Positions 9,424 to 25,079 of a DNA stretch of 30,524 bases are shown piece after piece. Source of the stretch: Erysipelotrichaceae bacterium (GTDB lineage Bacteria; Bacillota_I; Bacilli_A; Erysipelotrichales; Coprobacillaceae); assembly GCA_028698185.1 (NCBI GenBank), contig JAQVDW010000022.1:1-30524 (forward strand), given 5' to 3'. Below the pieces are notes generated by a model. It made no database searches. It had not been told where the DNA came from and was given only the letters and a program-made list of their open reading frames with translations. Within the stretch, counting starts at the first letter, position 1, and each line of letters opens with the position of its first letter. The position numbers and the translations under genes were made by a program.

Positions 9424-10106
9424 AAGAATTGAAAAAAATAGTGTATGAAGCCAACATGGAGCTGCCTAGATATAATCTTGTTACCTTCACCTGGGGCAAT
9501 GTCAGCGCCATCGACCGGGAAAGCAACCTTATTGTCATCAAACCAAGCGGGGTCGACTACGACAAGCTAAGCCCCGGTGACATGGTTGTTGTCGATCTTG
9601 ATGGCAATGTGGTCGAAGGCAAATACAATCCCAGCTCGGATACGCTGACCCATATCGAGCTGTACAAGGCGTTCAAAAACATCGGCGGGGTGGTTCATAC
9701 CCACTCGCCATGGGCGACTTCATGGGCCCAGGCCGGTCGCGAAATTCCATGCTATGGGACTACCCATGCCGACTACCTTTACGGCGAAGTCCCTTGCGTT
9801 CGCAACCTTTCCAAAGAGGAAATCGACGAGGGCTATGAGATGAACACCGGCAAGATCATCGTGGCGGAATTCGCAAACCGCGATTACGAAGCGATGCCGG
9901 CGGTCGTTTGCAAGAACCATGGTCCTTTCACCTGGGGCAAGGATGCGATGGATGCAGTCCACAACGCTGTTGTCCTCGAGGAAGTCGCCAAAATGGCGAC
10001 CCAGACTGAAATATTGAACCACCATGTGCAACAAGCCCCTAAGGTGCTCCAGGACAAGCACTACTTCCGCAAGCACGGGGCCAACGCCTACTATGGTCAA
10101 AAGTAA
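9417..10106 (+). CDS. ulaF: L-ribulose-5-phosphate 4-epimerase (class II aldolase fold)
   Basis: [39 protein letters not shown]...DMVVVDL.G..VEG...PSSDT.TH..LY..F..IGG.VHTHS is typical AraD/UlaF/SgbE. GGAGG RBS. Overlaps the ulaE stop. Confidence 0.92.
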
Positions 10107-10116
10107 GGAGAGCTTA

Positions 10117-10941
10117 ATGAATAATAATGACTTGAAAATAGCGGCCAACCAGATCCGCCAGTCGATCGTCCAGATGGTCCACTGCGCGAGTTCCGGACAT
10201 CCCGGCGGATCGCTGTCGGCGGCCGACATACTCACATACCTTTATTTTGTCGAAATGAACATCGACCCGAAAAATCCGAAAATGGAAGAAAGAGACCGGT
10301 TCGTCCTGTCAAAGGGCCATGTAACTCCGGCTTACTATTCGACCTTAGCCCAGCGCGGTTACTTTGATATTGCCGAACTTGAAACATTCAGAAAAGTCAA
10401 CAGCCGTCTTCAGGGTCATCCGGCGATGCAGTACATCGAAGGGATCGACATGTCATCGGGGTCGCTTGGCCAAGGCCTTTCGACCGCGGTGGGAATGGCC
10501 AAGGCCTTCAAGATGGATGGCAAAGAGAACCGGGTCTATGCCCTTTGTGGTGACGGGGAACTTCAGGAAGGTCAGATCTGGGAGGCGGCAATGTTCGCCG
10601 GTTCCAACCTGCTTGACAACCTGACGGTCATCGTCGACAACAACAATCTCCAGATTGACGGTTCGATTGAAGAGGTCAACTCGCCATATCCGATCGACAA
10701 GAAATTCGAGGCCTTCAATTTCAACGTGATCGTGATCGACGGCCACAATTTCGATGCGATCGCCGAAGCCTTCAAACAGGCCCGTCAAACCAAATGTATG
10801 CCAACCGCCATCATCGCCAAGACGATCAAAGGCAAGGGCGTATCTTTCATGGAGGACAATGTGGCATGGCATGGCAGCGCGCCAAATGCCGCCCAATGTC
10901 AGCAGGCCCTGGCCGATCTTAAGAAAGTTGAGGTGGAATGA
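10117..10941 (+). CDS. Transketolase, N-terminal (TPP-binding) subunit
   Basis: The internal ATG at 10117, after AAGGAG, gives MNNNDLKIAANQIRQSIVQMVHCASSGHPGGSLSAADIL.. (split-transketolase N subunit, GDG..EG TPP motif). The ORF-track start at 10024 overlaps ulaF and is unlikely. Confidence 0.9.
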   Translation: MNNNDLKIAANQIRQSIVQMVHCASSGHPGGSLSAADILTYLYFVEMNIDPKNPKMEERDRFVLSKGHVTPAYYSTLAQRGYFDIAELETFRKVNSRLQGHPAMQYIEGIDMSSGSLGQGLSTAVGMAKAFKMDGKENRVYALCGDGELQEGQIWEAAMFAGSNLLDNLTVIVDNNNLQIDGSIEEVNSPYPIDKKFEAFNFNVIVIDGHNFDAIAEAFKQARQTKCMPTAIIAKTIKGKGVSFMEDNVAWHGSAPNAAQCQQALADLKKVEVE

Positions 10942-10943
10942 CG

Positions 10944-11876
10944 ATGGCTGAAAAAATAGCGACAAGAATATCCTACGGTGAGACTCTGGTCGAACTGGGG
11001 AAAATCCATGACGACCTGGTTGTCCTCGATGCCGATCTGGCAGCGGCCACCAAGACCGACATGTTCAAAAAAGCGTTCCCGGATCGGTTCATCGATGTGG
11101 GAATCGCCGAATGCAATCTGATGGGTATCGCTGCGGGAATGAGCACCTGTGGCAAGGTTCCTTTCTGTTCGACCTTCGCGATGTTTGCATCGGGACGGGC
11201 GTTCGAGCAGGTCCGCAACACAATCGGATACCCCCACCTGAATGTGAAAATCGGGGCGACCCATGCCGGGATCACCGTCGGTGAAGACGGGGCATCCCAT
11301 CAGTGCAACGAGGACCTTGCCTTGATGAGCACGATTCCAGGAATGACAGTCATCGTTCCAAGTGACGATATCGAAGCCCGGGCGGCAGTAAAAGCGGCCT
11401 ACGAGACTTATGGTCCGATGTATCTCCGTTTCGGCCGGGCCCCGGTGGATATCATCAACGATTTCGAAGGCTACAAGTTCGAAATCGGCAAAGGTGTCAG
11501 ACTCAAAGAAGGAAAAGACATCACCATCATCGCGACCGGAATCTGCGTTGGCAATTCCCTGGAAGCGGCCAAGATGCTTGAAAATGATGGCATCAGTGTC
11601 GAAGTCATCAATATCCATACGATCAAACCGCTTGATACAAACATCATAATCGAATCGGCCAAAAAGACAAACCGCGTCTTCACGGTCGAAGAACATTCGG
11701 TGATCAACGGTCTTGGTTCTCAAGTTGCCAGCACCCTGGCTGAAAATTATCCGGTCAAGGTGACCAAACTGGGGATGTACGATCTCTTCGGGCAGTCGGG
11801 ACCGGCCAATGAGCTTCTGGTCAAATACCAGCTTGATCCGACCGGAATCTACAACCAGATCAAAGAAAAACTATAA
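10944..11876 (+). CDS. Transketolase, C-terminal (pyrimidine-binding) subunit
   Basis: MAEKIATR.SYGE.LVELG......VVLDADL..ATKT..F...FP.RFIDVGIAE.N..G.AAG is the typical split-transketolase C subunit. GAGGTGG lies 7 nt before ATG 10944; ATG 10938 is also possible. Confidence 0.9.
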   Translation: MAEKIATRISYGETLVELGKIHDDLVVLDADLAAATKTDMFKKAFPDRFIDVGIAECNLMGIAAGMSTCGKVPFCSTFAMFASGRAFEQVRNTIGYPHLNVKIGATHAGITVGEDGASHQCNEDLALMSTIPGMTVIVPSDDIEARAAVKAAYETYGPMYLRFGRAPVDIINDFEGYKFEIGKGVRLKEGKDITIIATGICVGNSLEAAKMLENDGISVEVINIHTIKPLDTNIIIESAKKTNRVFTVEEHSVINGLGSQVASTLAENYPVKVTKLGMYDLFGQSGPANELLVKYQLDPTGIYNQIKEKL

Positions 11877-11948: not shown

Positions 11949-12034
11949 GCGGTTTTTACAAATTAATCGAAAGCAAACCAGGTTGCTTTTGAAAGTATTG
12001 TGTGTTATTCTTTCTTTAGAAATGGGTGAATGAC

Positions 12035-12787
12035 ATGAACAAAAGACAGGCAAAAATATTGGAATTGCTTAGCGAACAGAAAAAAATAGAAGTGGCGAAA
12101 CTCTCGGAGCTTCTCGGGGTTTCCCAGGTGACGATCCGCAAGGATCTTGTCCAGCTTGAAACAAGCGGGATGCTTGTAAGGGAACACGGGTTTGCGACCT
12201 TGAACGAAAGCGACGACATCAACAACCGGATGGCTCATCATTACCAGACAAAACAAAAGATTGCCGCCCTGGCTGCCAGCTCGATCCAGAACGGGGAGAC
12301 AGTCATGATCGAATCGGGATCATGCTGCGCCCTGGTGGCCCTGGAAATCGCTGCGACAAAAAAGGATGTCACCATCATCACCAATTCGGCTTTTATCGCC
12401 GATTACATCAGGAAGACCGGCAACGTCAAGATAATCCTGCTTGGCGGAGAATACCAGAGAGAATCCCAAGTCATGGTGGGGCCGATAACCAGGAAGTGCG
12501 TCGAGAGTTTTTATGTCGCGAAGTTTTTCATCGGCACCGACGGTTTCTCGATTGACTCGGGATTCACGGGAAACGACTATATGCGGGCCGAAACGGTCAA
12601 GGATATGGCTAGACAGGCCAAGGATGTCATCATCGTATCCGACTCGTCCAAGTTTGCCAAGATTGGGGTTGTCAACCTGTTGCCAACCAGCGCCATATCC
12701 AAGGTGATCACCGACAGCAATATCCCGATGGCCGATGAGGAGTATCTGGCCGGGGTGAACATCGCCGTTGAAAAAGTTGCCGGATAA
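12035..12787 (+). CDS. DeoR-family transcriptional regulator (GlpR-like)
   Basis: MNKRQAKILELLSEQKKIEVAKLSELLGVSQVTIRKDLVQLETSGMLVREHG wHTH plus a DeoR C-terminal domain. ATG 12035 is preferred over the GTG at 12026. Confidence 0.85.
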   Translation: MNKRQAKILELLSEQKKIEVAKLSELLGVSQVTIRKDLVQLETSGMLVREHGFATLNESDDINNRMAHHYQTKQKIAALAASSIQNGETVMIESGSCCALVALEIAATKKDVTIITNSAFIADYIRKTGNVKIILLGGEYQRESQVMVGPITRKCVESFYVAKFFIGTDGFSIDSGFTGNDYMRAETVKDMARQAKDVIIVSDSSKFAKIGVVNLLPTSAISKVITDSNIPMADEEYLAGVNIAVEKVAG

Positions 12788-12926
12788 TTCTCCAACTCGC
12801 AAAATCTTCATATAATTGAACCAATCATCCAGACACGCTTACTATTGATGTGGGCGTTTTTTTTACGCAAAAGCATAATGAATTATGTTTCGAATGAAAT
12901 TAAAATCATTTATTTATGAAATGATG

Positions 12927-12954
12927 TTGACATTCATCCTTGTTGTGATAATAT
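12927..12954 (+). promoter_or_regulatory. Sigma-A-like promoter (extended -10) of the glycyl-radical-enzyme operon
   Basis: TTGACA (12927-12932), 16-nt spacer ending in TG-n, TAATAT (12949-12954). Flanked by two copies of TTTCGAATGAAAT. Confidence 0.55.
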
Positions 12955-13006
12955 TTATTGTGTAATGAAACAATAAATGGTTTCGAATGAAATCAAGGAG
13001 AAGAAT

Positions 13007-15418
13007 ATGAAAAATGTGGAACATTTCGGCGACCTGACCCAAAGAATGAACGAATTCCGGGAAAAGGTTTTGGAGAAGAAACCTTACATCGATGCCCAGC
13101 GGGCCCTGTTGGCGACTGAGGCGTACCAGGCCAACCAGCACCAGAGCGCGGTGATGAAACGGGCCCTGATGCTAAAAAACATCCTGGAGAAAATGGATAT
13201 CTATATCGAAGATGAGACATTGATTGTCGGCAACCAGGCGGCATCGAACAAGGATGCCCCGGTATTTCCCGAGTATACCCTCGATTTTGTGATCAACGAG
13301 CTCGACCTGTTTGAAAAGCGGGACGGCGATGTGTTCTACATAACCGAAAAGACCAAAGAGGACTTGCGTACGATCGCACCTTTCTGGAAGAACAACAACC
13401 TCCGGGCCAAGGGCGGGGCGCTGCTGCCCGACGAGGTGGCAGTGTTCATGGAGACTGGCTTCTTTGGAATGGAAGGGAAGCTCAATTCCGGTGATGCCCA
13501 TCTGGCGGTCGACTATCAGACGATGCTCGAGACCGGCCTTAAAGGTTACCAAAGGCGGGTCGAAAGGCTCAAAGGGGAACTTGACCTTTGCGACGTTGCA
13601 AGCATCGACAAGTACCAGTTCTACAAGGCCGTGCTTATTGTCATCGAGGCGGTAAGGACGTTCGCATCCCGCTATGCTATCCTGGCCCGGGAGATGGCAG
13701 ATACTGCCAGTGGCCAAAGAAAAGAGGAACTGCTTGAAATCAGCCGGATCTGCGACAAGGTACCTTATGAAGCGGCGGAAACATTCCAGGAAGCGCTCCA
13801 GGCCACCTGGTTTATCCAGCTGATCTTGCAGATCGAATCGAACGGCCATTCCCTTTCGTACGGCCGCTTCGACCAGTATATCTATCCTTATTACAAGGCG
13901 GACAAAGACAATGGGAAAATAACCGATGACCAGGTGGTCGAACTGCTTAACAACCTGTGGATCAAGACCTTGACCATAAACAAGATCCGCTCGCAATCAC
14001 ATACGTTCTCAAGTGCGGGCAGCCCGATGTACCAGAACGTGACCATCGGCGGCCAGACTCCGGACAAAAAGGATGCGACCAATGAGCTTTCCTACCTGAT
14101 TTTGAAATCGGTTGCCCAGACCAGGCTGCCCCAGCCCAATCTGACAGTCCGCTATCATCGCAACATGCCAAAAGAATTCATGGATGAGGCGCTGGAAGTG
14201 ATGAAGCTGGGAACCGGGATGCCGGCATTCAACTCGGATGAAATCATCATCCCGTCGTTCATTGAAAAGGGTGTCAGCGAAGAGGATGCCTACAACTACT
14301 CGGCAATTGGCTGTGTCGAAACGGCGGTTCCGGGAAAATGGGGCTACCGCTGCACCGGGATGAGCTACATGAACTTCCCGCGGATCCTGCTTATCGTGAT
14401 GAACGACGGCATCGATCCGACCACCGGCCGACGCTTTGTCGCGGGGCGGGGGCATTTCAAGGACATGACCAGCTTCGATCAGCTGATGGAGGCCATCAAT
14501 GATGTGATGCGCGAGCTGACCAGGATGAGTGTCATCGTTGAAAACGCAATCGACCTGGCTTTGGAACGTGATGTTCCCGATGTGCTATGCTCAACACTGA
14601 CCCAGGACTGCATCGGACGGGGAAAAACCATCAAGGAAGGCGGAGCAATCTACGATTTCATTTCCGGATTGCAAGTCGGAATCGCCAACATGGCCGACTC
14701 TTTGGCGGCCATCAAGAAGCTGGTTTTCGAGGAAAAAACAATCACCACCCAGCAGCTTTTCGATGCGCTTCAGGACAACTTCGAAAGTGAAGAAGGCAAG
14801 AAAATCCAGATGCTGCTCATAAACGATGCTCCCAAATACGGCAATGACATCGATTATGTCGACAACCTGGTTGTCGCTGTGTATGACACCTATCTTGACG
14901 AGATGAAAAAATACCCGAACACCCGGTATGGCCGGGGTCCGATCGGGGGTATCCGCTACGGTGGGACTTCGAGCATTTCTGCCAATGTCGGTCAGGGCTT
15001 TGGCACCATGGCCACACCGGACGGCCGCAAGGCGCGAACCCCGCTGGCCGAAGGCTGTTCACCGGCCCACAACTGTGACAAGTCCGGGCCGACTGCGGTG
15101 TTCAAGTCGGTGGCCAAATTGCCGACCCATGAAATCACCGGCGGGGTCCTGCTCAACCAGAAGGTAACTCCGCAGCTGTTGCAGGATGAAGGAAACAAGC
15201 AGAAACTGTCAATGATGATCAGGACATTCTTCAACCGTCTTGACGGCTACCATGTCCAGTACAATGTCGTTTCCGGGGATACCCTGATCGAAGCGCAAAA
15301 ATATCCGGAAAAACACCGCGATCTGATTGTCCGGGTTGCCGGCTATTCGGCATTCTTCAATGTGCTCTCGAAAGCGACCCAGGATGACATCATCGAGCGG
15401 ACCGAACAAACTTTATAG
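13007..15418 (+). CDS. Glycyl radical enzyme, PFL2 / PflD-YbiW-like (putative sugar-phosphate C-O lyase/dehydratase)
   Basis: C-terminal glycyl-radical fingerprint RVAGYSAFF. Single catalytic Cys loop AIGCVETAVPGKWGYRCTGMS, with no PFL-type Cys-Cys. Blocks LILQIESNGHSLSYGRFDQYIYPYY, SAGSPMYQNVTIGGQ and ATPDGRKARTPLAEGCSPA resemble E. coli YbiW/PflD as I recall them. AAGGAG lies 7 nt before ATG 13007. Confidence 0.93.
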   Translation: MKNVEHFGDLTQRMNEFREKVLEKKPYIDAQRALLATEAYQANQHQSAVMKRALMLKNILEKMDIYIEDETLIVGNQAASNKDAPVFPEYTLDFVINELDLFEKRDGDVFYITEKTKEDLRTIAPFWKNNNLRAKGGALLPDEVAVFMETGFFGMEGKLNSGDAHLAVDYQTMLETGLKGYQRRVERLKGELDLCDVASIDKYQFYKAVLIVIEAVRTFASRYAILAREMADTASGQRKEELLEISRICDKVPYEAAETFQEALQATWFIQLILQIESNGHSLSYGRFDQYIYPYYKADKDNGKITDDQVVELLNNLWIKTLTINKIRSQSHTFSSAGSPMYQNVTIGGQTPDKKDATNELSYLILKSVAQTRLPQPNLTVRYHRNMPKEFMDEALEVMKLGTGMPAFNSDEIIIPSFIEKGVSEEDAYNYSAIGCVETAVPGKWGYRCTGMSYMNFPRILLIVMNDGIDPTTGRRFVAGRGHFKDMTSFDQLMEAINDVMRELTRMSVIVENAIDLALERDVPDVLCSTLTQDCIGRGKTIKEGGAIYDFISGLQVGIANMADSLAAIKKLVFEEKTITTQQLFDALQDNFESEEGKKIQMLLINDAPKYGNDIDYVDNLVVAVYDTYLDEMKKYPNTRYGRGPIGGIRYGGTSSISANVGQGFGTMATPDGRKARTPLAEGCSPAHNCDKSGPTAVFKSVAKLPTHEITGGVLLNQKVTPQLLQDEGNKQKLSMMIRTFFNRLDGYHVQYNVVSGDTLIEAQKYPEKHRDLIVRVAGYSAFFNVLSKATQDDIIERTEQTL

Positions 15419-15428
15419 GAGACAAAAA

Positions 15429-16109
15429 ATGGAATTCATTATCGATACAGTAAATCTAGAACAGATCGCCAGGGCGATCGAATACCTGCCAATTTGCGGG
15501 GTCACCAGCAATCCTTCGATTGTCAAAGCTACAGCGCCAGAGAATTTCTTCGACCATATGCGTGAGATACGCAAGATGATCGGAATGGAGCGCAGTCTCC
15601 ATATCCAGGTCATCGGACGCGACTGTGCGAACATGGTTGCACAGGCCCATCGGATTTTAAGCGAGATCGACGACCAGGTCTATGTCAAGGTCCCGGTCTG
15701 CCATGAAGGGATCAAGGCCATCAGGATTCTAAAAAAACAGGGGATCAGGGTGACCGCGACAGCAGTCTACGATCTGATGCAGGCGTACCTTGCGCTGGCG
15801 GCGGGGGCCGACTATATCGCACCTTATGTCAACCGGATCGGCAATCTCGGGGGCGATCCGATGACATTGATTGACGAGCTGGCCCACCGGATAGCACTTG
15901 ATGGAGCAAAGACGAAGATTGTCGCCGCCTCGTTCAAAGGCGTGGCGCAAGTCAGGGATTCGCTCAACCACGGGGCCCAGGCAGTGACCGTTCCCACCGC
16001 CATCCTCGACCAGATTTTCGTCAATCCCAGCATTGAAAAAGCAATGAGCGATTTCAACTCCGACTGGTACTCGATGTACGGTCAGGGCGTTGGTATTTGC
16101 GACCTGTGA
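15429..16109 (+). CDS. fsa: Fructose-6-phosphate-aldolase-type class I aldolase (transaldolase family), paralog 1
   Basis: MEFIIDTVNLEQI...LPICGVTSNPSIV...VYVKVPV (Schiff-base Lys context)...ADYIAPYVNRIGNLGGDP...ASFKG.. resembles E. coli FsaA/FsaB. Starts 10 nt after the GRE stop, with a TAGGAG RBS. The ORF-track start at 15327 overlaps the GRE and is unlikely. Confidence 0.88.
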   Translation: MEFIIDTVNLEQIARAIEYLPICGVTSNPSIVKATAPENFFDHMREIRKMIGMERSLHIQVIGRDCANMVAQAHRILSEIDDQVYVKVPVCHEGIKAIRILKKQGIRVTATAVYDLMQAYLALAAGADYIAPYVNRIGNLGGDPMTLIDELAHRIALDGAKTKIVAASFKGVAQVRDSLNHGAQAVTVPTAILDQIFVNPSIEKAMSDFNSDWYSMYGQGVGICDL

Positions 16110-16115
16110 TATCCG

Positions 16116-16150
16116 CCTCCCATAAGGATTCTTATGGGAGGTTTTGTTTT
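16116..16150 (+). terminator. Rho-independent terminator after GRE-fsa
   Basis: cctcccataag / gatt / cttatgggagg (11-bp perfect stem) followed by ttttgtttt. Confidence 0.85.
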
Positions 16151-16163
16151 GACTCCATCACGC

Positions 16164-16186
16164 AAAAAAGACCAGCTAGGCTGGTC
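16164..16186 (-). terminator. Rho-independent terminator of the convergent activase gene
   Basis: On the minus strand: gaccagc / cta / gctggtc followed by TTTTTT, directly after the activase stop. Confidence 0.7.
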
Positions 16187-17083
16187 TTAGAAGAAACAAT
16201 CGATGCCATTTTGGATGAAGATTTCCTGGTAATCCTTTAGATCTTCCTTGTAAAGCGCCTTGATGTTGCCATAGGCGTATTTGCGGTTGAGCAGATCGTA
16301 TTTGCCCTGGCCAAACTGGTGGAAAGGCAGCAGCTGGACCTGGAAAATGTTTAGCTTCCTGAACAGGGCGACAAAACTCCTGGCGTCATCGAGGGAATTG
16401 TTGAAATCGGGGATAACCGGAATCCGGGGCAGGATTTCCAGCCCGTTCTTGCAAGCCCACAACAGGTTGGCTAGAATCTGCTCATTGGTCACTCCGGTCA
16501 TCTCCCTGTGTTTGATCGAGTCATGGTGCTTGACATCGAAAAGCAGCAGATCGAAAAGCGGGGCGATTTTCTGGAATGTTGCCGCGCTTGCGAATCCGGT
16601 CGTCTCCAGGGCGACATGGATATCGTGGGCTTTTAACGCTGGGAGGAGTTTTTCCAAAAATGCCGGTTGGAGCAGCGCCTCGCCGCCCGACAGGGTCACG
16701 CCGCCGTTGGATTCTTCATAGAAGTCCTTGTCCTGGAGACACAAAGCGACGATGTCTGCCACGCTTCTGGATTCGCCCTCTCTGGTCAAGGCGTGCTGCG
16801 GACAGAAGGCGAGACATTCCTGGCAGCCGTCGCATTTGTTGCGGTCGATCACGATCCGGCCTTCTTGAAAGGAAATGGCACCTTTTTTGCAGCCCGGGAT
16901 GCACTTTTTACAGCCGCTGCATTTCTTGGCATCCCACAGGATTACGATTTTGCCTGATTGCGATTCGGGATTGGCGCACCAGCGACAGTGCAGCGGGCAA
17001 CCCTTGAAAAAGACGGTCGTGCGGATGCCCGGCCCGTCATGGATTGAGAATTTCTGGATATTGAAGATAAGACCTTGGTCCAT
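16187..17083 (-). CDS. Glycyl-radical-enzyme activating enzyme (radical SAM, with two auxiliary ferredoxin-like clusters)
   Basis: N-terminal FSIHDGPGIRTTVFFKGCPLHCRWCANPES (CX3CX2C) plus CSGCKKCIPGC and CDGCQECLAFCP motifs. AAGGAG lies 8 nt before the ATG. Confidence 0.93.
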   Translation of the reverse strand: MDQGLIFNIQKFSIHDGPGIRTTVFFKGCPLHCRWCANPESQSGKIVILWDAKKCSGCKKCIPGCKKGAISFQEGRIVIDRNKCDGCQECLAFCPQHALTREGESRSVADIVALCLQDKDFYEESNGGVTLSGGEALLQPAFLEKLLPALKAHDIHVALETTGFASAATFQKIAPLFDLLLFDVKHHDSIKHREMTGVTNEQILANLLWACKNGLEILPRIPVIPDFNNSLDDARSFVALFRKLNIFQVQLLPFHQFGQGKYDLLNRKYAYGNIKALYKEDLKDYQEIFIQNGIDCFF

Positions 17084-17315
17084 TGTTGATCAGCTCCTTA
17101 CCCGGATATGATAACATGAATTGATTCGAATGTAAATAATATACTTTCATATGAAGCTCAAATTGGATGCGGACTGCCTCGTTCCCGCCGGTTCGGGCAT
17201 GACTGTCAGCGGTTGAGTCCATAAGTCGTCAAGTTAGGGTTTCCATGTGTTGATTTGTGGTTGGCCCGGGAGTATAATGGTTACATGTATAAATTAACCA
17301 GAAGAGGGGAACATT

Positions 17316-17999
17316 ATGGAAATACTGATTGACACAATCGATCTCGACCAGATCAAAGAAGCGGTCGAATACCTGCCGGTTGCCGGCGTTACAAGCAATC
17401 CTTCGATCGTCAAGAAAACAGCGCCAGCGGATTTTTTCAAGCATATGAACGAAATCCGCGCCATCATCGGCCAAAAGCGCAGTCTCCACGTCCAGGTCAT
17501 CGCCACCGATGCCCCGGGCATGGTCGCAGAGGCGCTGGAGATTCTTGAAAAAATCGACAAGAACGTCTATGTCAAGATTCCGGTGAGCTACGAAGGGATC
17601 AAGGCAATCAAGATCCTCAAGGAAAAAGGAGTCCGGGTGACTGCGACGGCCATCTATGACCTGATGCAGGCCTATCTTGCCCTGGAAGCGGGAGCCGACT
17701 ATCTCGCACCTTATGTCAACCGGATCGGCAATCTTGGGGGTGACCCGATGGAACTTATCGACAACCTGGCCATGAAGATCGCCAGCGACGATTACGATGC
17801 GAAAATCGTGGCAGCCAGCTTCAAAGGAGTGGAGCAGGTCAAACAGTCGCTCAATTTCGGGGCCCAGGCCATCACCGCACCAGTGGAGGTCCTCAAGGCG
17901 GTGTTCGCCAATCCCAATATCGCCAAGGCAATCAAAGATTTCAACAGCGACTGGCAGGATGTCTATGGGGCCAATGCCGGCCTGGTGGATTTGAAATAG
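17316..17999 (+). CDS. fsa: Fructose-6-phosphate-aldolase-type class I aldolase, paralog 2
   Basis: MEILIDTIDLDQI..LPVAGVTSNPSIV..VYVKIPV..ADYLAPYVNRIGNLGGDP.. is colinear with paralog 1 and transcribed divergently from the activase. Confidence 0.88.
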   Translation: MEILIDTIDLDQIKEAVEYLPVAGVTSNPSIVKKTAPADFFKHMNEIRAIIGQKRSLHVQVIATDAPGMVAEALEILEKIDKNVYVKIPVSYEGIKAIKILKEKGVRVTATAIYDLMQAYLALEAGADYLAPYVNRIGNLGGDPMELIDNLAMKIASDDYDAKIVAASFKGVEQVKQSLNFGAQAITAPVEVLKAVFANPNIAKAIKDFNSDWQDVYGANAGLVDLK

Positions 18000-18045
18000 G
18001 AGAACTATCCCCTGCCATGAAGATGGCCTTACAGGTCATTGGCGG

Positions 18046-18072
18046 TTCCACCTTTCCCGGTGGAATTTTTTT
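18046..18072 (+). terminator. Rho-independent terminator after fsa paralog 2
   Basis: ttccacc / tttccc / ggtggaa followed by T7. Confidence 0.75.
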
Positions 18073-18206: not shown

Positions 18207-18722
18207 ATGAAAAAGGTGATCGTGATCGGTTCTCCGGGAAGTGGCAAGAGCACATTTTCACGGGAACTGCAGCAAATAACGGGAATAAAGCTGTTTCATC
18301 TTGACTTGTTGTTCCACCGGCCGGACCGGACAACCTGTCCGATGGAAAAATTCGATGATAAGCTCACAATGATCATGGATAGGGATGAGTGGATAATCGA
18401 TGGCAACTATGCCCGGACGCTTCAAGCCCGGCTTGAAAGATGCGACACCGTCTTCTAGCTCGATTATCCGGTTGATTTGTGTCTTGCAGGCATCCACGCC
18501 CGGATTGGCCGGCCCCGGCCGGACATGCCCTGGATCGAGACGGAGGCAGATGAGGAGTTTTTAAAATTTGTGCAAAATTTCAAGACTGATGTCGAACCGG
18601 AGATGGCCAAACTGATCAAAGCGTGCCAGCCCCATAATGTCCGCCGCTTCAAATCCCGCAAAGAGGCAGCCGATTATCTTGAAAACCTGAAGATCCAGGC
18701 AAGTGGCTCAAACGCGCTGTGA
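18207..18722 (+). pseudogene. P-loop kinase-like ATPase (adenylate-kinase / topology-modulation-protein family) split by an in-frame TAG
   Basis: Walker A VIVIGSPGSGKST. ORFs 18207-18458 and 18477-18722 share one frame and are joined by ..CDTVF-TAG-LDYPVDLCLAGIHARIGRPRPDMPW.., which is colinear with intact family members (..D.IIFLD.P...C..R). The TAG is at 18456-18458. Confidence 0.72.
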
Positions 18723-24553: not shown

Positions 24554-24591
24554 GATGATATTTGTGTTTTCTGGAAGAAAGGATGCTCAAA

Positions 24592-25079
24592 ATGTTTAGA
24601 ACTATGAGAAGAAAAAAACAATTATTATCAACGGAAGAAATAGAGGTGATAATGAAAAGATGCACAAACGGCGTCTTGGCCTGTTTGGGTGATGATGACT
24701 ATCCGTATGCCGTCCCGGTGAGTTTTGTTTACTTTAACGATAGAATATATTTCCACACGGCAAAAGCAGGCCATAAGATCGATGCGATAACAAGATATTC
24801 AAAAGTATCATTTTCGGTGGTTGATGAAGATACTGTAGTAAGCGAAGAGTATACAACATACTTCCGCAGTGTTATCGCTTTTGGGAAAGCTAGAATAGTT
24901 GGGGAGAATGAAAAATTGGCGGCCTTTAAGGAATTGGTGAAAAAGTATTCCGGCGATCAACCGATGGATGCCCAACATAAGGAAATTGAAGGTGTGTTCA
25001 TGCATATATAGTTGCGATAGATGTTGAGCATATAACAGGTAAAGAAGCTATCGAATACAGCAAAGCAAAAAAACAGTGA
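24592..25079 (+). pseudogene. Pyridoxamine 5'-phosphate oxidase family (Pyridox_ox_2 / NimA-like flavoprotein), C-terminus displaced by a frameshift near 24990
   Basis: MFRTMRRKKQLLSTEEIEVIMKRCTNGVLACLGDDDYPYAVPVSFVY..IYFHTAKAGHKID is typical of the family. Frame 1 stops at 25009-25011. Frame 0 continues ..CVHAYIVAIDVEHITGKEAIEYSKAKKQ with a stop at 25077-25079, and that is the expected family C-terminus (..IEHxTGKE..). Confidence 0.78.

What the first reader, a model, noticed from the sequence alone, without database searches (positions are those of the whole stretch)
12035..17999. DeoR-controlled glycyl-radical-enzyme cluster with two FSA-type aldolases: a candidate radical sugar-phosphate ('anhydroglycolysis'-like) pathway with undefined substrate
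Seen in the sequence:
- An 803-aa protein with the RVAGYSAFF glycyl-radical fingerprint and a single-Cys GCVETAV loop. This marks it as a PFL2-type enzyme, not a true pyruvate formate-lyase.
- A convergent activase with CX3CX2C plus two ferredoxin-like Cys clusters.
- Two paralogous ~226-aa transaldolase-family aldolases. One starts 10 nt after the GRE stop; the other is divergent from the activase.
- A DeoR regulator upstream.

Established, as I recall it: the two orphan PFL-like GREs of E. coli (YbiW, PflD) each lie next to fsaA/fsaB. They were recently reported to ring-open 1,5-anhydroglucitol-6-P and 1,5-anhydromannitol-6-P to 1-deoxy-fructose-6-P, which FSA then cleaves.

Inference: this cluster encodes a related GRE-plus-aldolase route. 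It differs in three ways. It has two aldolase paralogs, it has no gldA-type reductase, and it has no dedicated transporter or kinase. It also sits directly downstream of an SgaT-type PTS operon that carries a third transaldolase-family gene. The substrate cannot be read from the sequence.
Basis: partly seen in the sequence, partly recalled or inferred. Interest (0 to 1): 0.78.

Follow-up and report, generated by a model that had tools for sequence, protein, structure and literature searches.

The report
YbiW-type radical anhydro-sugar glycolysis cluster
This is a gut-Firmicute copy of the 'anhydroglycolysis' genes described in E. coli in 2024 (a YbiW-like glycyl radical enzyme, its activase, two fructose-6-phosphate-type aldolases and a repressor); it most likely lets the bacterium ferment the sugar analogue 1,5-anhydroglucitol without oxygen, so it is real but an ordinary new member of a known pathway.

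Summary
The glycyl radical enzyme (GRE, 13007-15418) is not an orphan. It is 50% identical to E. coli YbiW, the 1,5-anhydroglucitol-6-phosphate (AG6P) C-O lyase. It scores far better against YbiW structures (843 bits) than against any other solved GRE (glycerol dehydratase 625, PflD 472). It groups with YbiW in 97 of 100 bootstrap trees. It also shares the YbiW-specific active-site segments that PflD and glycerol dehydratase lack.

Both linked aldolases carry the fructose-6-phosphate aldolase (FSA) catalytic signature (Gln59, Lys85, Ala129, Tyr131), not the transaldolase one. The third aldolase-family gene, in the upstream PTS operon, is a true transaldolase.

Eighty related loci from gut Firmicutes (73-90% identical GRE) show a compact cassette of DeoR regulator, activase, GRE and FSA in changing surroundings. 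A conserved operator-like box (TTWCRAATGAAA) lies about 123 and 29 nt upstream of the GRE start. The lack of gldA and of a transporter matches the E. coli ybiW locus.

Only the second aldolase and the relocated activase are unusual; one close relative shares them. Verdict: a new member of a known, already 'widespread' pathway. Activity is untested. Interest is low to moderate.

The parts
12035..12787 (+). DeoR-family transcriptional regulator, the presumed repressor of the cassette. The ORF opens at GTG 12026; the ATG is at 12035.
   Evidence: HTH_DeoR and DeoRC domains. Best NCBIfam matches are YciT, AgaR, GlpR and SrlR, all below their cut-offs. A homologue lies next to the GRE in 58 of 80 related loci.
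12835..12857 (+). Terminator-like hairpin after the regulator gene
12887..12900 (+). Distal operator-like box GTTTCGAATGAAAT, upstream of the -35 hexamer
   Evidence: It is an exact 14-nt repeat of the proximal box. A matching box lies 105-140 nt upstream of the GRE start in 56 of 75 related loci, against 0.7 expected from shuffles.
12927..12954 (+). Promoter-like site for GRE-fsa1 (TTGACA, 16 nt, TAATAT, with an extended TG)
   Evidence: consensus match only.
12980..12993 (+). Proximal operator-like box GTTTCGAATGAAAT, between the -10 hexamer and the ribosome-binding site
   Evidence: A matching box lies 24-47 nt upstream of the GRE start in 38 of 75 related loci, against 0.4 expected from shuffles.
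13007..15418 (+). YbiW-type glycyl radical enzyme, 803 aa: Cys436 and Glu438 in the Cys loop, glycyl radical site in RVAGYSAFF
15429..16109 (+). Fsa1, an FSA-type aldolase (226 aa), apparently translationally coupled to the GRE
   Evidence: 282 bits against NCBIfam PRK12656 (cut-off 214). FSA signature Q/K/T/A/Y. An FSA gene sits directly downstream of the GRE in 41 of 63 related loci.
16115..16188 (.). Two back-to-back terminator-like hairpins between the convergent fsa1 and activase genes
   Evidence: 16115-16142 on +, 16188-16168 on -
16187..17083 (-). GRE-activating radical SAM enzyme (298 aa) with CX3CX2C and two ferredoxin-like Cys clusters
   Evidence: 336 bits against TIGR02494; Radical_SAM and Fer4 domains; Cys motifs read from the translation.
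17108..17156 (.). Activase promoter-like site on the minus strand (-35 at 17136-17131, -10 at 17113-17108) with two degenerate operator-like boxes: ATTCGAATGTAA at 17124-17135 (2 mismatches) and TTTCATATGAAG at 17145-17156 (1 mismatch)
   Evidence: The assignment as operators is inference.
17250..17278 (+). Promoter-like site for fsa2
17316..17999 (+). Fsa2, a second FSA-type aldolase (227 aa), 66% identical to Fsa1
   Evidence: 291 bits against PRK12656; FSA signature. A second copy is seen only here and in L001.
18044..18067 (+). Terminator-like hairpin after fsa2, marking the end of the cassette

Best explanation
The region is a Firmicute version of the YbiW branch of 'anhydroglycolysis'.

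1. Inferred: 1,5-anhydroglucitol enters the cell and is phosphorylated to AG6P by a general glucose-type PTS or kinase encoded elsewhere.
2. Inferred from family membership: the activase uses S-adenosylmethionine and its [4Fe-4S] clusters to place a radical on the Gly of RVAGYSAFF in the GRE.
3. Inferred by homology to YbiW: the radical passes to Cys436, which abstracts the C2 hydrogen of AG6P. Glu438 deprotonates the C2 hydroxyl and the ring C-O bond breaks. The product is the isomer 1-deoxyfructose-6-phosphate.
4. Inferred by homology to FsaA/FsaB: Fsa1 and/or Fsa2, class I Schiff-base aldolases with the FSA Gln/Lys/Tyr triad, cleave it to glyceraldehyde-3-phosphate, which enters glycolysis, and hydroxyacetone. 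No reductase for hydroxyacetone is encoded in this window.
5. Inferred: the DeoR-family protein represses the GRE-fsa1 promoter, and probably the activase promoter, through paired TTWCRAATGAAA boxes about 93 bp apart, until a sugar phosphate inducer binds it.

Shown here: gene content, family and clade membership, catalytic signatures, the conserved cassette and the conserved boxes. Not shown here: any activity, the inducer or the uptake route.
For: - Similarity. The GRE is 50% identical to E. coli YbiW, against 36.5% (blastp; 37% in the multiple alignment) to PflD and 42% to C. butyricum glycerol dehydratase. Against all PDB chains it scores 862 and 843 bits on YbiW-type structures. Every other solved GRE scores lower: GD 625, diol dehydratase 565, CutC 497, PflD 472, HypD 455, HplG 410, IslA 392, PFL 151.
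- Phylogeny. In a neighbour-joining tree of 80 GREs, including 50%-identity cluster representatives from a scan of 1.84 billion proteins, the window GRE, its relatives and YbiW form one clade in 97 of 100 bootstraps.
- Active site. The YbiW-specific pocket segments are shared and differ in PflD, GD and the sister clusters: SGDAH, SAGSPxYQNVT, GCxETAVxGKWGYRCTGMS, SGLQVGIAN, the RYGRGPxGG insertion with GTSSISANV, and GGVLLNQK. ESNGHS is also shared but is common to GD and the sister clusters. The Cys-x-Glu pair aligns with YbiW Cys441/Glu443, the residues named for AG6P catalysis in PMC13450708 section 5.7.
- Aldolases. All 48 aldolase genes found in the related loci, and Fsa1 and Fsa2 themselves, carry the FSA signature Q59/K85/T109/A129/Y131. 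They fall into two FSA subfamilies only about 40% identical to each other.
- Cassette. An FSA gene lies directly downstream of the GRE in 41 of 63 loci. The activase lies divergent upstream in 66 of 70. DeoR is present in 58 of 80. The flanking genes are unrelated housekeeping genes. A ROK-family sugar kinase follows the FSA gene in 3 loci.
- Regulation. Operator-like boxes are conserved in position, in 56 and 38 of 75 loci against fewer than 1 expected.
- Literature. YbiW/PflD chemistry, FSA cleavage, and growth of many gut bacteria on 1,5-anhydroglucitol are reported in PMC13450708 and PMC12441222, both citing Ma et al., JACS 2024;146:26187.
Against: - 50% identity does not guarantee the same substrate among GREs.
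- The residues that contact AG6P in structure 8ID7 could not be read, because neither the primary paper nor coordinates are held. The pocket comparison therefore rests on segments homologous to the known glycerol dehydratase pocket and on the Cys loop.
- No NCBIfam equivalog model exists for YbiW; only the broad PFL2-3 subfamily model is passed.
- No transporter, kinase or hydroxyacetone reductase is in the window.
- The activase is no closer to YbiY (38%) than to PflC (36%).
- Promoters, terminators and operators are pattern matches only.
Confidence: 0.7

Rival explanations
1. The chemistry is the same (GRE ring-opening isomerase followed by an FSA aldolase), but the substrate is a different anhydro- or deoxy-sugar phosphate. 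Examples are 1,5-anhydromannitol-6-P or another 1,5-anhydrohexitol phosphate. On this reading the Firmicute clade is a sister specificity to YbiW rather than an isofunctional orthologue.
For: - Identity to YbiW is only 50%.
- E. coli YbiW sits on its own long branch, outside the tight Firmicute group.
- YbiW and PflD show that the family has already split on a single C2 epimer (PMC13450708).
- The two FSA paralogues could hint at more than one ketose phosphate product.
Against: - The pocket segments are shared with YbiW and differ from PflD.
- Of 232 clade-conserved columns where YbiW and PflD differ, the window GRE matches YbiW at 121 and PflD at 35.
- The nearest sister clusters (P0003-P0006) already differ in these segments, while the window GRE does not.
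- Fsa1 and Fsa2 have identical catalytic and donor-site signatures.
Confidence: 0.2
2. The GRE is a glycerol/diol-type dehydratase (1,2-eliminase) acting on a small polyol, and the aldolases are linked to it only by coincidence.
For: - Glycerol dehydratase is the second-best solved relative, at 625 bits and 42% identity.
- The CxE Cys loop and the His164, His281, Ser282 and Tyr339 equivalents are shared with GD.
- YbiW itself has been crystallised with glycerol bound (PMC13450708 section 4.4).
Against: - The GD pocket residues Asp447 and Tyr640 (numbering recalled from the GD literature and mapped) are replaced, in the same way as in YbiW: GYRCTGMS and GTSSISANV, plus a 6-residue insertion.
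- The GRE falls outside the GD clade in the tree.
- No aldehyde dehydrogenase, 1,3-propanediol dehydrogenase or microcompartment genes were recognised among the window ORFs scanned.
- FSA linkage is conserved across two FSA subfamilies.
Confidence: 0.05
3. The GRE is a genuine pyruvate or 2-ketobutyrate formate-lyase, as database names such as 'formate C-acetyltransferase' suggest.
For: Homologues and PDB entries carry that name. The PflD-type NCBIfam model is named formate C-acetyltransferase.
Against: - The Cys loop has a single Cys followed by Glu (GCVE), not the adjacent Cys-Cys pair of PFL.
- It scores only 151 bits against PFL structures and 169 bits against TIGR01255, whose cut-off is 994.
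Confidence: 0.01

Closest known systems
E. coli ybiW-ybiY / fsaA locus (YbiW = 1,5-anhydroglucitol-6-phosphate C-O lyase; Ma et al., JACS 2024, as summarised in PMC13450708 and PMC12441222)
   Same: - The GRE is in the same clade (97/100 bootstraps), 50% identical, and shares the Cys-x-Glu loop and the YbiW-specific pocket segments.
- It has a dedicated activase with two extra ferredoxin-like clusters.
- An FSA-type aldolase is adjacent.
- The locus has no gldA, transporter or kinase.
   Different: - The host is a gut Firmicute; the closest relative is a Coprobacillaceae MAG with a 90% identical GRE.
- A DeoR-family regulator with conserved paired boxes is part of the cassette, whereas none is adjacent in E. 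coli.
- There are two FSA paralogues of the PRK12656 type, only 35-39% identical to FsaA/FsaB.
- The activase is convergent and downstream, rather than directly after the GRE.
- There is no YbiV-type phosphatase.
E. coli frwCB-pflD-pflC-frwD / gldA-fsaB-ptsA locus (PflD = 1,5-anhydromannitol-6-phosphate C-O lyase)
   Same: The pathway logic is the same: GRE isomerase, activase and FSA aldolase yielding 1-deoxyfructose-6-P, then glyceraldehyde-3-P and hydroxyacetone.
   Different: - Identity is only 36.5%, and PflD lies outside the window GRE's clade.
- PflD differs in every pocket segment compared.
- The PflD locus carries its own PTS components and gldA, which are absent here.
B12-independent glycerol dehydratase (C. 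butyricum, PDB 1R8W/1R9D) and propanediol dehydratase (5I2A)
   Same: They share the GRE fold, the CxE Cys loop, the ESNGHS motif and the pocket Tyr.
   Different: - The reaction is 1,2-elimination, not isomerisation.
- The equivalents of GD Asp447 and Tyr640 are replaced, and the YbiW-type 6-residue insertion is present.
- No downstream aldehyde-handling genes are present.
Short (about 220 aa) transaldolases such as B. subtilis Tal (PDB 3R8R)
   Same: They belong to the same TAL_FSA fold family as Fsa1 and Fsa2. The upstream gene at 5756-6409 is a member, at 271 bits against 3R8R.
   Different: - Fsa1 and Fsa2 have Gln, Ala and Tyr where transaldolases have Glu, Ser and Phe. The meaning of these positions comes from the FSA/TalB literature, cited from memory.
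- Their best PDB matches are FSA structures.

Membership tests
Glycyl radical enzymes (PFL-like division) | PFL-like barrel domain plus a C-terminal glycyl radical domain with the RVxG motif | tested here: met
   PF02901 at 697 bits and PF01228 at 112 bits; RVAGYSAFF is in the translation.
Glycyl radical enzymes (PFL-like division) | A cognate radical SAM activase encoded nearby | tested here: met
   TIGR02494 at 336 bits (cut-off 174); CX3CX2C plus two Cys clusters.
YbiW-type AG6P C-O lyase (GRE isomerase class) | Groups with E. coli YbiW to the exclusion of other characterised GREs | tested here: met
   NJ tree of 80 sequences gives 97/100 bootstraps. PDB ranking: YbiW 843 bits against 625 for the next family.
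YbiW-type AG6P C-O lyase (GRE isomerase class) | Cys-x-Glu on the Cys loop (YbiW Cys441/Glu443) | tested here: met
   Cys436 and Glu438 align with YbiW Cys441 and Glu443. The roles of these residues are given in PMC13450708 section 5.7.
YbiW-type AG6P C-O lyase (GRE isomerase class) | Conservation of the residues that contact AG6P in structure 8ID7 | tested here: inconclusive
   The contact list could not be obtained, because neither the primary paper nor coordinates are held. As a proxy, the active-site-lining segments match YbiW in their conserved positions and differ in PflD; all but ESNGHS also differ in GD and the sister clusters.
YbiW-type AG6P C-O lyase (GRE isomerase class) | Genomic linkage to an FSA-type aldolase that can cleave 1-deoxyfructose-6-P | tested here: met
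   Fsa1 starts 10 nt after the GRE stop. An FSA gene lies directly downstream in 41 of 63 relatives, and all carry the FSA signature.
YbiW-type AG6P C-O lyase (GRE isomerase class) | Converts AG6P to 1-deoxyfructose-6-P, and supports anaerobic growth on 1,5-anhydroglucitol | not testable with these tools
   This needs anaerobic enzymology and growth experiments.
PflD-type AM6P C-O lyase | Groups with E. coli PflD and shares its pocket segments | tested here: not met
   36.5% identity. PflD served as the outgroup and lies outside the clade. PflD has KGQGH, ESNASS, FAGFPTGY and GCVELSIPGR-TYGLHD where the window GRE matches YbiW.
Glycerol/diol dehydratase GREs (1,2-eliminases) | GD-type pocket (His164, Ser282, Tyr339, Asp447, Tyr640; numbering recalled from the GD literature) | tested here: not met
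   The His, Ser and Tyr339 equivalents are present. The Asp447 and Tyr640 equivalents are replaced, as in YbiW. The GRE lies outside the GD clade.
Pyruvate formate-lyase proper | Adjacent Cys-Cys pair in the Cys loop and a pass of TIGR01255 | tested here: not met
   Single Cys (GCVE). TIGR01255 scores 169 bits against a cut-off of 994.
Fructose-6-phosphate aldolase (FSA), as opposed to transaldolase | Schiff-base Lys85 with Gln59 and Tyr131 (transaldolases have Glu and Phe) and Ala129 (transaldolases have Ser); the roles of these residues are taken from the FSA/TalB literature, from memory | tested here: met
   Fsa1 and Fsa2 read D-T-N-Q-K-T-A-T-A-Y-R-S at FsaA positions 6, 26, 28, 59, 85, 107, 108, 109, 129, 131, 134 and 166. 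PRK12656 scores 282 and 291 bits against a cut-off of 214. Aldol cleavage itself was not tested.
DeoR-family sugar-phosphate-responsive repressors | N-terminal HTH_DeoR domain plus a C-terminal DeoRC sensor domain | tested here: met
   PF08220 at 64 bits and PF00455 at 149 bits. The operator and effector are only inferred.

The most novel reading that the evidence does not exclude
The Firmicute clade is not isofunctional with YbiW. It would open a different anhydro- or deoxy-sugar phosphate, and the two diverged FSA paralogues (66% identical, with separate promoters) would have split roles. For example, one could cleave 1-deoxyfructose-6-P and the other a second ketose phosphate, or act in the synthetic direction. 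A DeoR repressor would loop the DNA between the paired boxes about 93 bp apart. That would define a third branch of radical 'anhydroglycolysis'.
Probability: 0.15. Interest if true: 0.5.

Novelty: new member of a known kind. Interest (0 to 1): 0.25.

Why it matters
The result extends the YbiW branch of the radical 'anhydroglycolysis' pathway from E. coli to a tight, widely distributed cassette in gut Firmicutes (Coprobacillaceae/Erysipelotrichaceae, Anaerostipes and other Lachnospiraceae, Oscillospiraceae, Peptacetobacter).

It also supplies things useful for annotation and experiments:
- a sequence signature that separates YbiW-type enzymes from PflD, glycerol dehydratase and neighbouring uncharacterised clusters;
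- a likely dedicated DeoR-family regulator;
- a conserved candidate operator (TTWCRAATGAAA, in two copies) that could be used to predict the regulon.

1,5-Anhydroglucitol is a clinical marker and the precursor of a toxic metabolite in two neutropenias (PMC12441222), so knowing which gut bacteria can consume it has some medical relevance. None of this changes the known picture of the pathway.

Tried and rejected
1. E. coli origin: megablast of the region against 5,426 E. coli genomes found nothing, so this is not an enterobacterial locus.
2. Primary paper: Ma et al. 2024 is not held. The AG6P contact residues could therefore not be checked. The attempt to find phosphate-binding candidates (polar residues shared with YbiW and PflD but not GD) gave an uninformative list and was dropped.
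3. Link to the upstream SgaT-type PTS operon: rejected as part of the system. The adjacency is kept only in the closest relative, and even there 6.7 kb of other genes intervene. The operon has its own DeoR regulator. Its aldolase-family gene is a true transaldolase that fits the transketolase/epimerase pentose module.
4. Hydroxyacetone or anhydrofructose reductase in the window: there is no GldA homologue. The Gfo/Idh/MocA oxidoreductase at 23291-24283 matches only uncharacterised family members best, and nothing ties it to the cassette.
5. Conserved transporter or kinase next to the cassette in relatives: none is general, and flanks are housekeeping genes such as FeoB, ParAB, Pst and TyrRS. 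A ROK kinase occurs in only 3 loci.
6. Rfam scan of the window: no riboswitch or other RNA family.
7. Structure prediction was not run. It accepts only window sequences or proteins from a homologous-protein search, which I did not run, and a single-sequence model of an 803-aa protein would be poor. A fold match would also not discriminate among GRE families.

Full report
**Observation**

- A DeoR-family regulator lies at 12026/12035-12787, with HTH_DeoR and DeoRC domains.
- It is followed by a terminator-like hairpin, a good sigma-70-type promoter (12927-12954), and the GRE.
- The GRE ORF opens at 12977.
- The GRE has the PFL-like and Gly_radical domains. It passes only the broad PFL2-3 subfamily model (915 bits) and no equivalog model: HypD 590/1100, PflD-type 579/1109, CutC 517/1050, PFL 169/994.
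- RVAGYSAFF and the single-Cys GCVETAV loop are present.
- Fsa1 (15429-16109) starts 10 nt after the GRE stop.
- The activase (16187-17083, minus strand) converges on Fsa1, with back-to-back terminators between them. It carries CX3CX2C and two ferredoxin-type Cys clusters.
- Fsa2 (17316-17999) diverges from the activase and is 66% identical to Fsa1.

**What the GRE is**

YbiW and PflD of E. coli open 1,5-anhydroglucitol-6-P (AG6P) and 1,5-anhydromannitol-6-P (AM6P) to 1-deoxyfructose-6-P. FSA aldolases cleave that product to glyceraldehyde-3-P and hydroxyacetone. The pathway lets E. coli and many gut bacteria grow on 1,5-anhydroglucitol (PMC13450708 section 5.7; PMC12441222 section 5.1; both cite Ma et al., JACS 2024;146:26187, which is not held).

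Four lines of evidence place the window GRE with YbiW.

- PDB ranking. Against every PDB chain, the window GRE scores 862 and 843 bits on YbiW-type structures (6XS4, 8ID7). It scores 625 on glycerol dehydratase, 565 on diol dehydratase, 497 on CutC, 472 on PflD, 455 on HypD, 410 on HplG, 392 on IslA and 151 on PFL.
- Identity. With the E. coli genes fetched, identity is 50% to YbiW, 36.5% to PflD by blastp, and 42% to glycerol dehydratase.
- Phylogeny. An exhaustive HMMER scan of 1.84 billion cluster representatives found 2,327 relatives at E ≤ 1e-30. A neighbour-joining tree used the full-length representatives among the best 75 hits, nine related loci, YbiW, PflD and glycerol dehydratase. 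It puts the window GRE, its relatives and YbiW in one clade in 97 of 100 bootstraps.
- Pocket segments. These were located by mapping the known glycerol dehydratase pocket and the Cys loop. They match YbiW in their conserved positions: SGDAH, ESNGHS, SAGSPxYQNVT, GCxETAVxGKWGYRCTGMS, SGLQVGIAN, the six-residue insertion RYGRGPxGG followed by GTSSISANV, and GGVLLNQK. They differ in PflD and, except for ESNGHS, in glycerol dehydratase and the nearest sister clusters P0003-P0006.

Cys436 and Glu438 align with YbiW Cys441 and Glu443, the catalytic pair named in the review. AG6P is therefore the leading candidate substrate. This is an inference from clade membership and motif sharing, not from ligand contacts, which I could not read.

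**The aldolases**

Fsa1 and Fsa2 pass the FSA equivalog model PRK12656 (282 and 291 bits; cut-off 214). Their best solved relatives are FSA structures.

At the positions that separate FSA from transaldolase (FsaA Gln59, Lys85, Ala129, Tyr131; roles from the FSA/TalB literature, from memory), both read Q, K, A and Y. So do all 48 aldolase genes found in the related loci, although these belong to two FSA subfamilies only about 40% identical to each other.

The gene at 5756-6409 in the upstream operon has Glu, Ser and Phe at the equivalent positions. It matches B. subtilis transaldolase at 271 bits, so it is a true transaldolase. It belongs with the transketolase and epimerase genes of that ascorbate-like PTS operon.

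**Context in relatives**

One scan of species-representative genomes returned 80 loci whose GREs are 73-90% identical. They come from Coprobacillaceae/Erysipelotrichaceae, Anaerostipes and other Lachnospiraceae, Oscillospiraceae and Peptacetobacter, with single Streptococcaceae, Atopobiaceae and Bacteroidaceae-labelled records.

The conserved unit is DeoR, activase (divergent, upstream), GRE and FSA (directly downstream):
- the activase is divergent upstream in 66 of 70 loci with enough flank;
- an FSA gene is directly downstream in 41 of 63;
- DeoR is present in 58 of 80;
- all four genes are present in 32 of 55 loci with both flanks.

Beyond these genes the neighbours are unrelated housekeeping genes. 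No transporter is conserved, and a ROK-family kinase follows the FSA gene in three loci.

The E. coli ybiW-ybiY/fsaA locus likewise has no transporter, kinase or gldA. Those sit at the pflD locus. The window has no GldA homologue.

The real peculiarities are the second FSA gene and the activase moved downstream of fsa1. Among the 80 loci, these occur only in L001, a Coprobacillaceae MAG and the closest relative. The exact GRE sequence is on record in a single public run.

**Regulation**

A 14-nt sequence, GTTTCGAATGAAAT, occurs twice around the GRE promoter, at 12887-12900 and 12980-12993, 93 bp apart.

Scanning the 350 nt upstream of the GRE in 75 related loci finds a matching box 105-140 nt upstream of the start in 56 loci and 24-47 nt upstream in 38. 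Shuffled sequences give 0.7 and 0.4. The consensus is NTTWCRAATGAAAN, a near-palindrome.

Two degenerate copies lie at the activase promoter, at 17124-17135 and 17145-17156.

I infer these are operators of the cassette's DeoR protein. Characterised relatives of this family mostly respond to sugar phosphates (established knowledge). Binding and effector are untested.

**Mechanism proposed**

1,5-Anhydroglucitol is taken up and phosphorylated by functions encoded elsewhere. The activase installs the glycyl radical. The GRE isomerises AG6P to 1-deoxyfructose-6-P through the Cys436 thiyl radical and Glu438. Fsa1 and/or Fsa2 cleave that product to glyceraldehyde-3-P and hydroxyacetone. DeoR keeps the genes off until a sugar phosphate inducer accumulates.

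Gene content, clade, signatures, the conserved cassette and the conserved boxes are shown here. Every chemical step is inferred by homology.

**Rivals**

- A sister specificity for another anhydro- or deoxy-sugar phosphate remains possible at 50% identity (about 0.2).
- A glycerol/diol dehydratase role is unlikely: the pocket is replaced as in YbiW, the tree places the GRE elsewhere, aldehyde-handling genes are absent, and FSA linkage is conserved.
- A true formate-lyase is excluded by the Cys loop and the scores.

**Verdict**

However, this is a new member of a pathway published in 2024 and already described as widespread in gut bacteria. The additions here are modest: a YbiW-clade signature, the DeoR regulator with paired conserved boxes, and a lineage-specific second FSA. 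Interest 0.25.

Noticed in passing
window 7520-8560 (+): A 346-aa ORF sits inside the ascorbate-like PTS operon. Its start overlaps the stop of the operon's DeoR gene and its stop overlaps the start of the UlaE-like gene, so it looks translationally coupled. It has no Pfam, NCBIfam, PADLOC or PDB sequence match. The operon has no recognisable UlaD-type decarboxylase, so this unknown protein may fill a missing step.
   Followed up: partly
window 2725-11876 (+): An eleven-gene ula-like operon: UlaG-type lactonase, PTS IIA, SgaT-type IIC, a true transaldolase, IIB, its own DeoR regulator, the unknown ORF, L-ribulose-5-P 3-epimerase, L-ribulose-5-P 4-epimerase and a split transketolase (N and C halves). 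Pentose-phosphate enzymes built into an ascorbate-type PTS operon suggest a self-contained route from a lactone or acid sugar to glycolysis.
   Followed up: partly
window 18207-18722 (+): A DNA topology modulation protein (PRK08118 type, about 172 aa) is interrupted by a single in-frame TAG at 18456-18458. Both halves still match the family model. It is probably a recent pseudogene or a sequencing error.
   Followed up: partly
L059, L062, L071 (gene directly after the FSA gene): In three related loci a ROK-family sugar kinase follows the FSA gene. This hints that some species phosphorylate the anhydro-sugar with a kinase rather than a PTS.
   Followed up: no
related loci L035-L080 versus L001-L034 (gene downstream of the GRE): The GRE is paired with one of two FSA subfamilies, only about 40% identical to each other: a PRK12656-like type with T-A at FsaA positions 107-108, and a second type with I-G. 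This implies the aldolase partner was recruited or replaced independently.
   Followed up: partly
protein P0009: A 761-aa cluster representative inside the YbiW clade has Arg in place of the catalytic Cys (GRLE instead of GCxE) and several degraded motifs. It is possibly a decaying or non-catalytic paralogue.
   Followed up: no
window 24562-25011 (+): A 149-aa pyridoxamine-5'-phosphate-oxidase-fold protein resembles the NimABCDEF 5-nitroimidazole reductase family (175 bits, below the 260-bit cut-off).
   Followed up: no
window 24-341 (+) and 1194-2342 (+): The window starts with the C-terminal fragment of an IS110-family transposase. Two tandem, weakly ArsC-like (low-molecular-weight phosphatase fold) genes follow it.
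   Followed up: no
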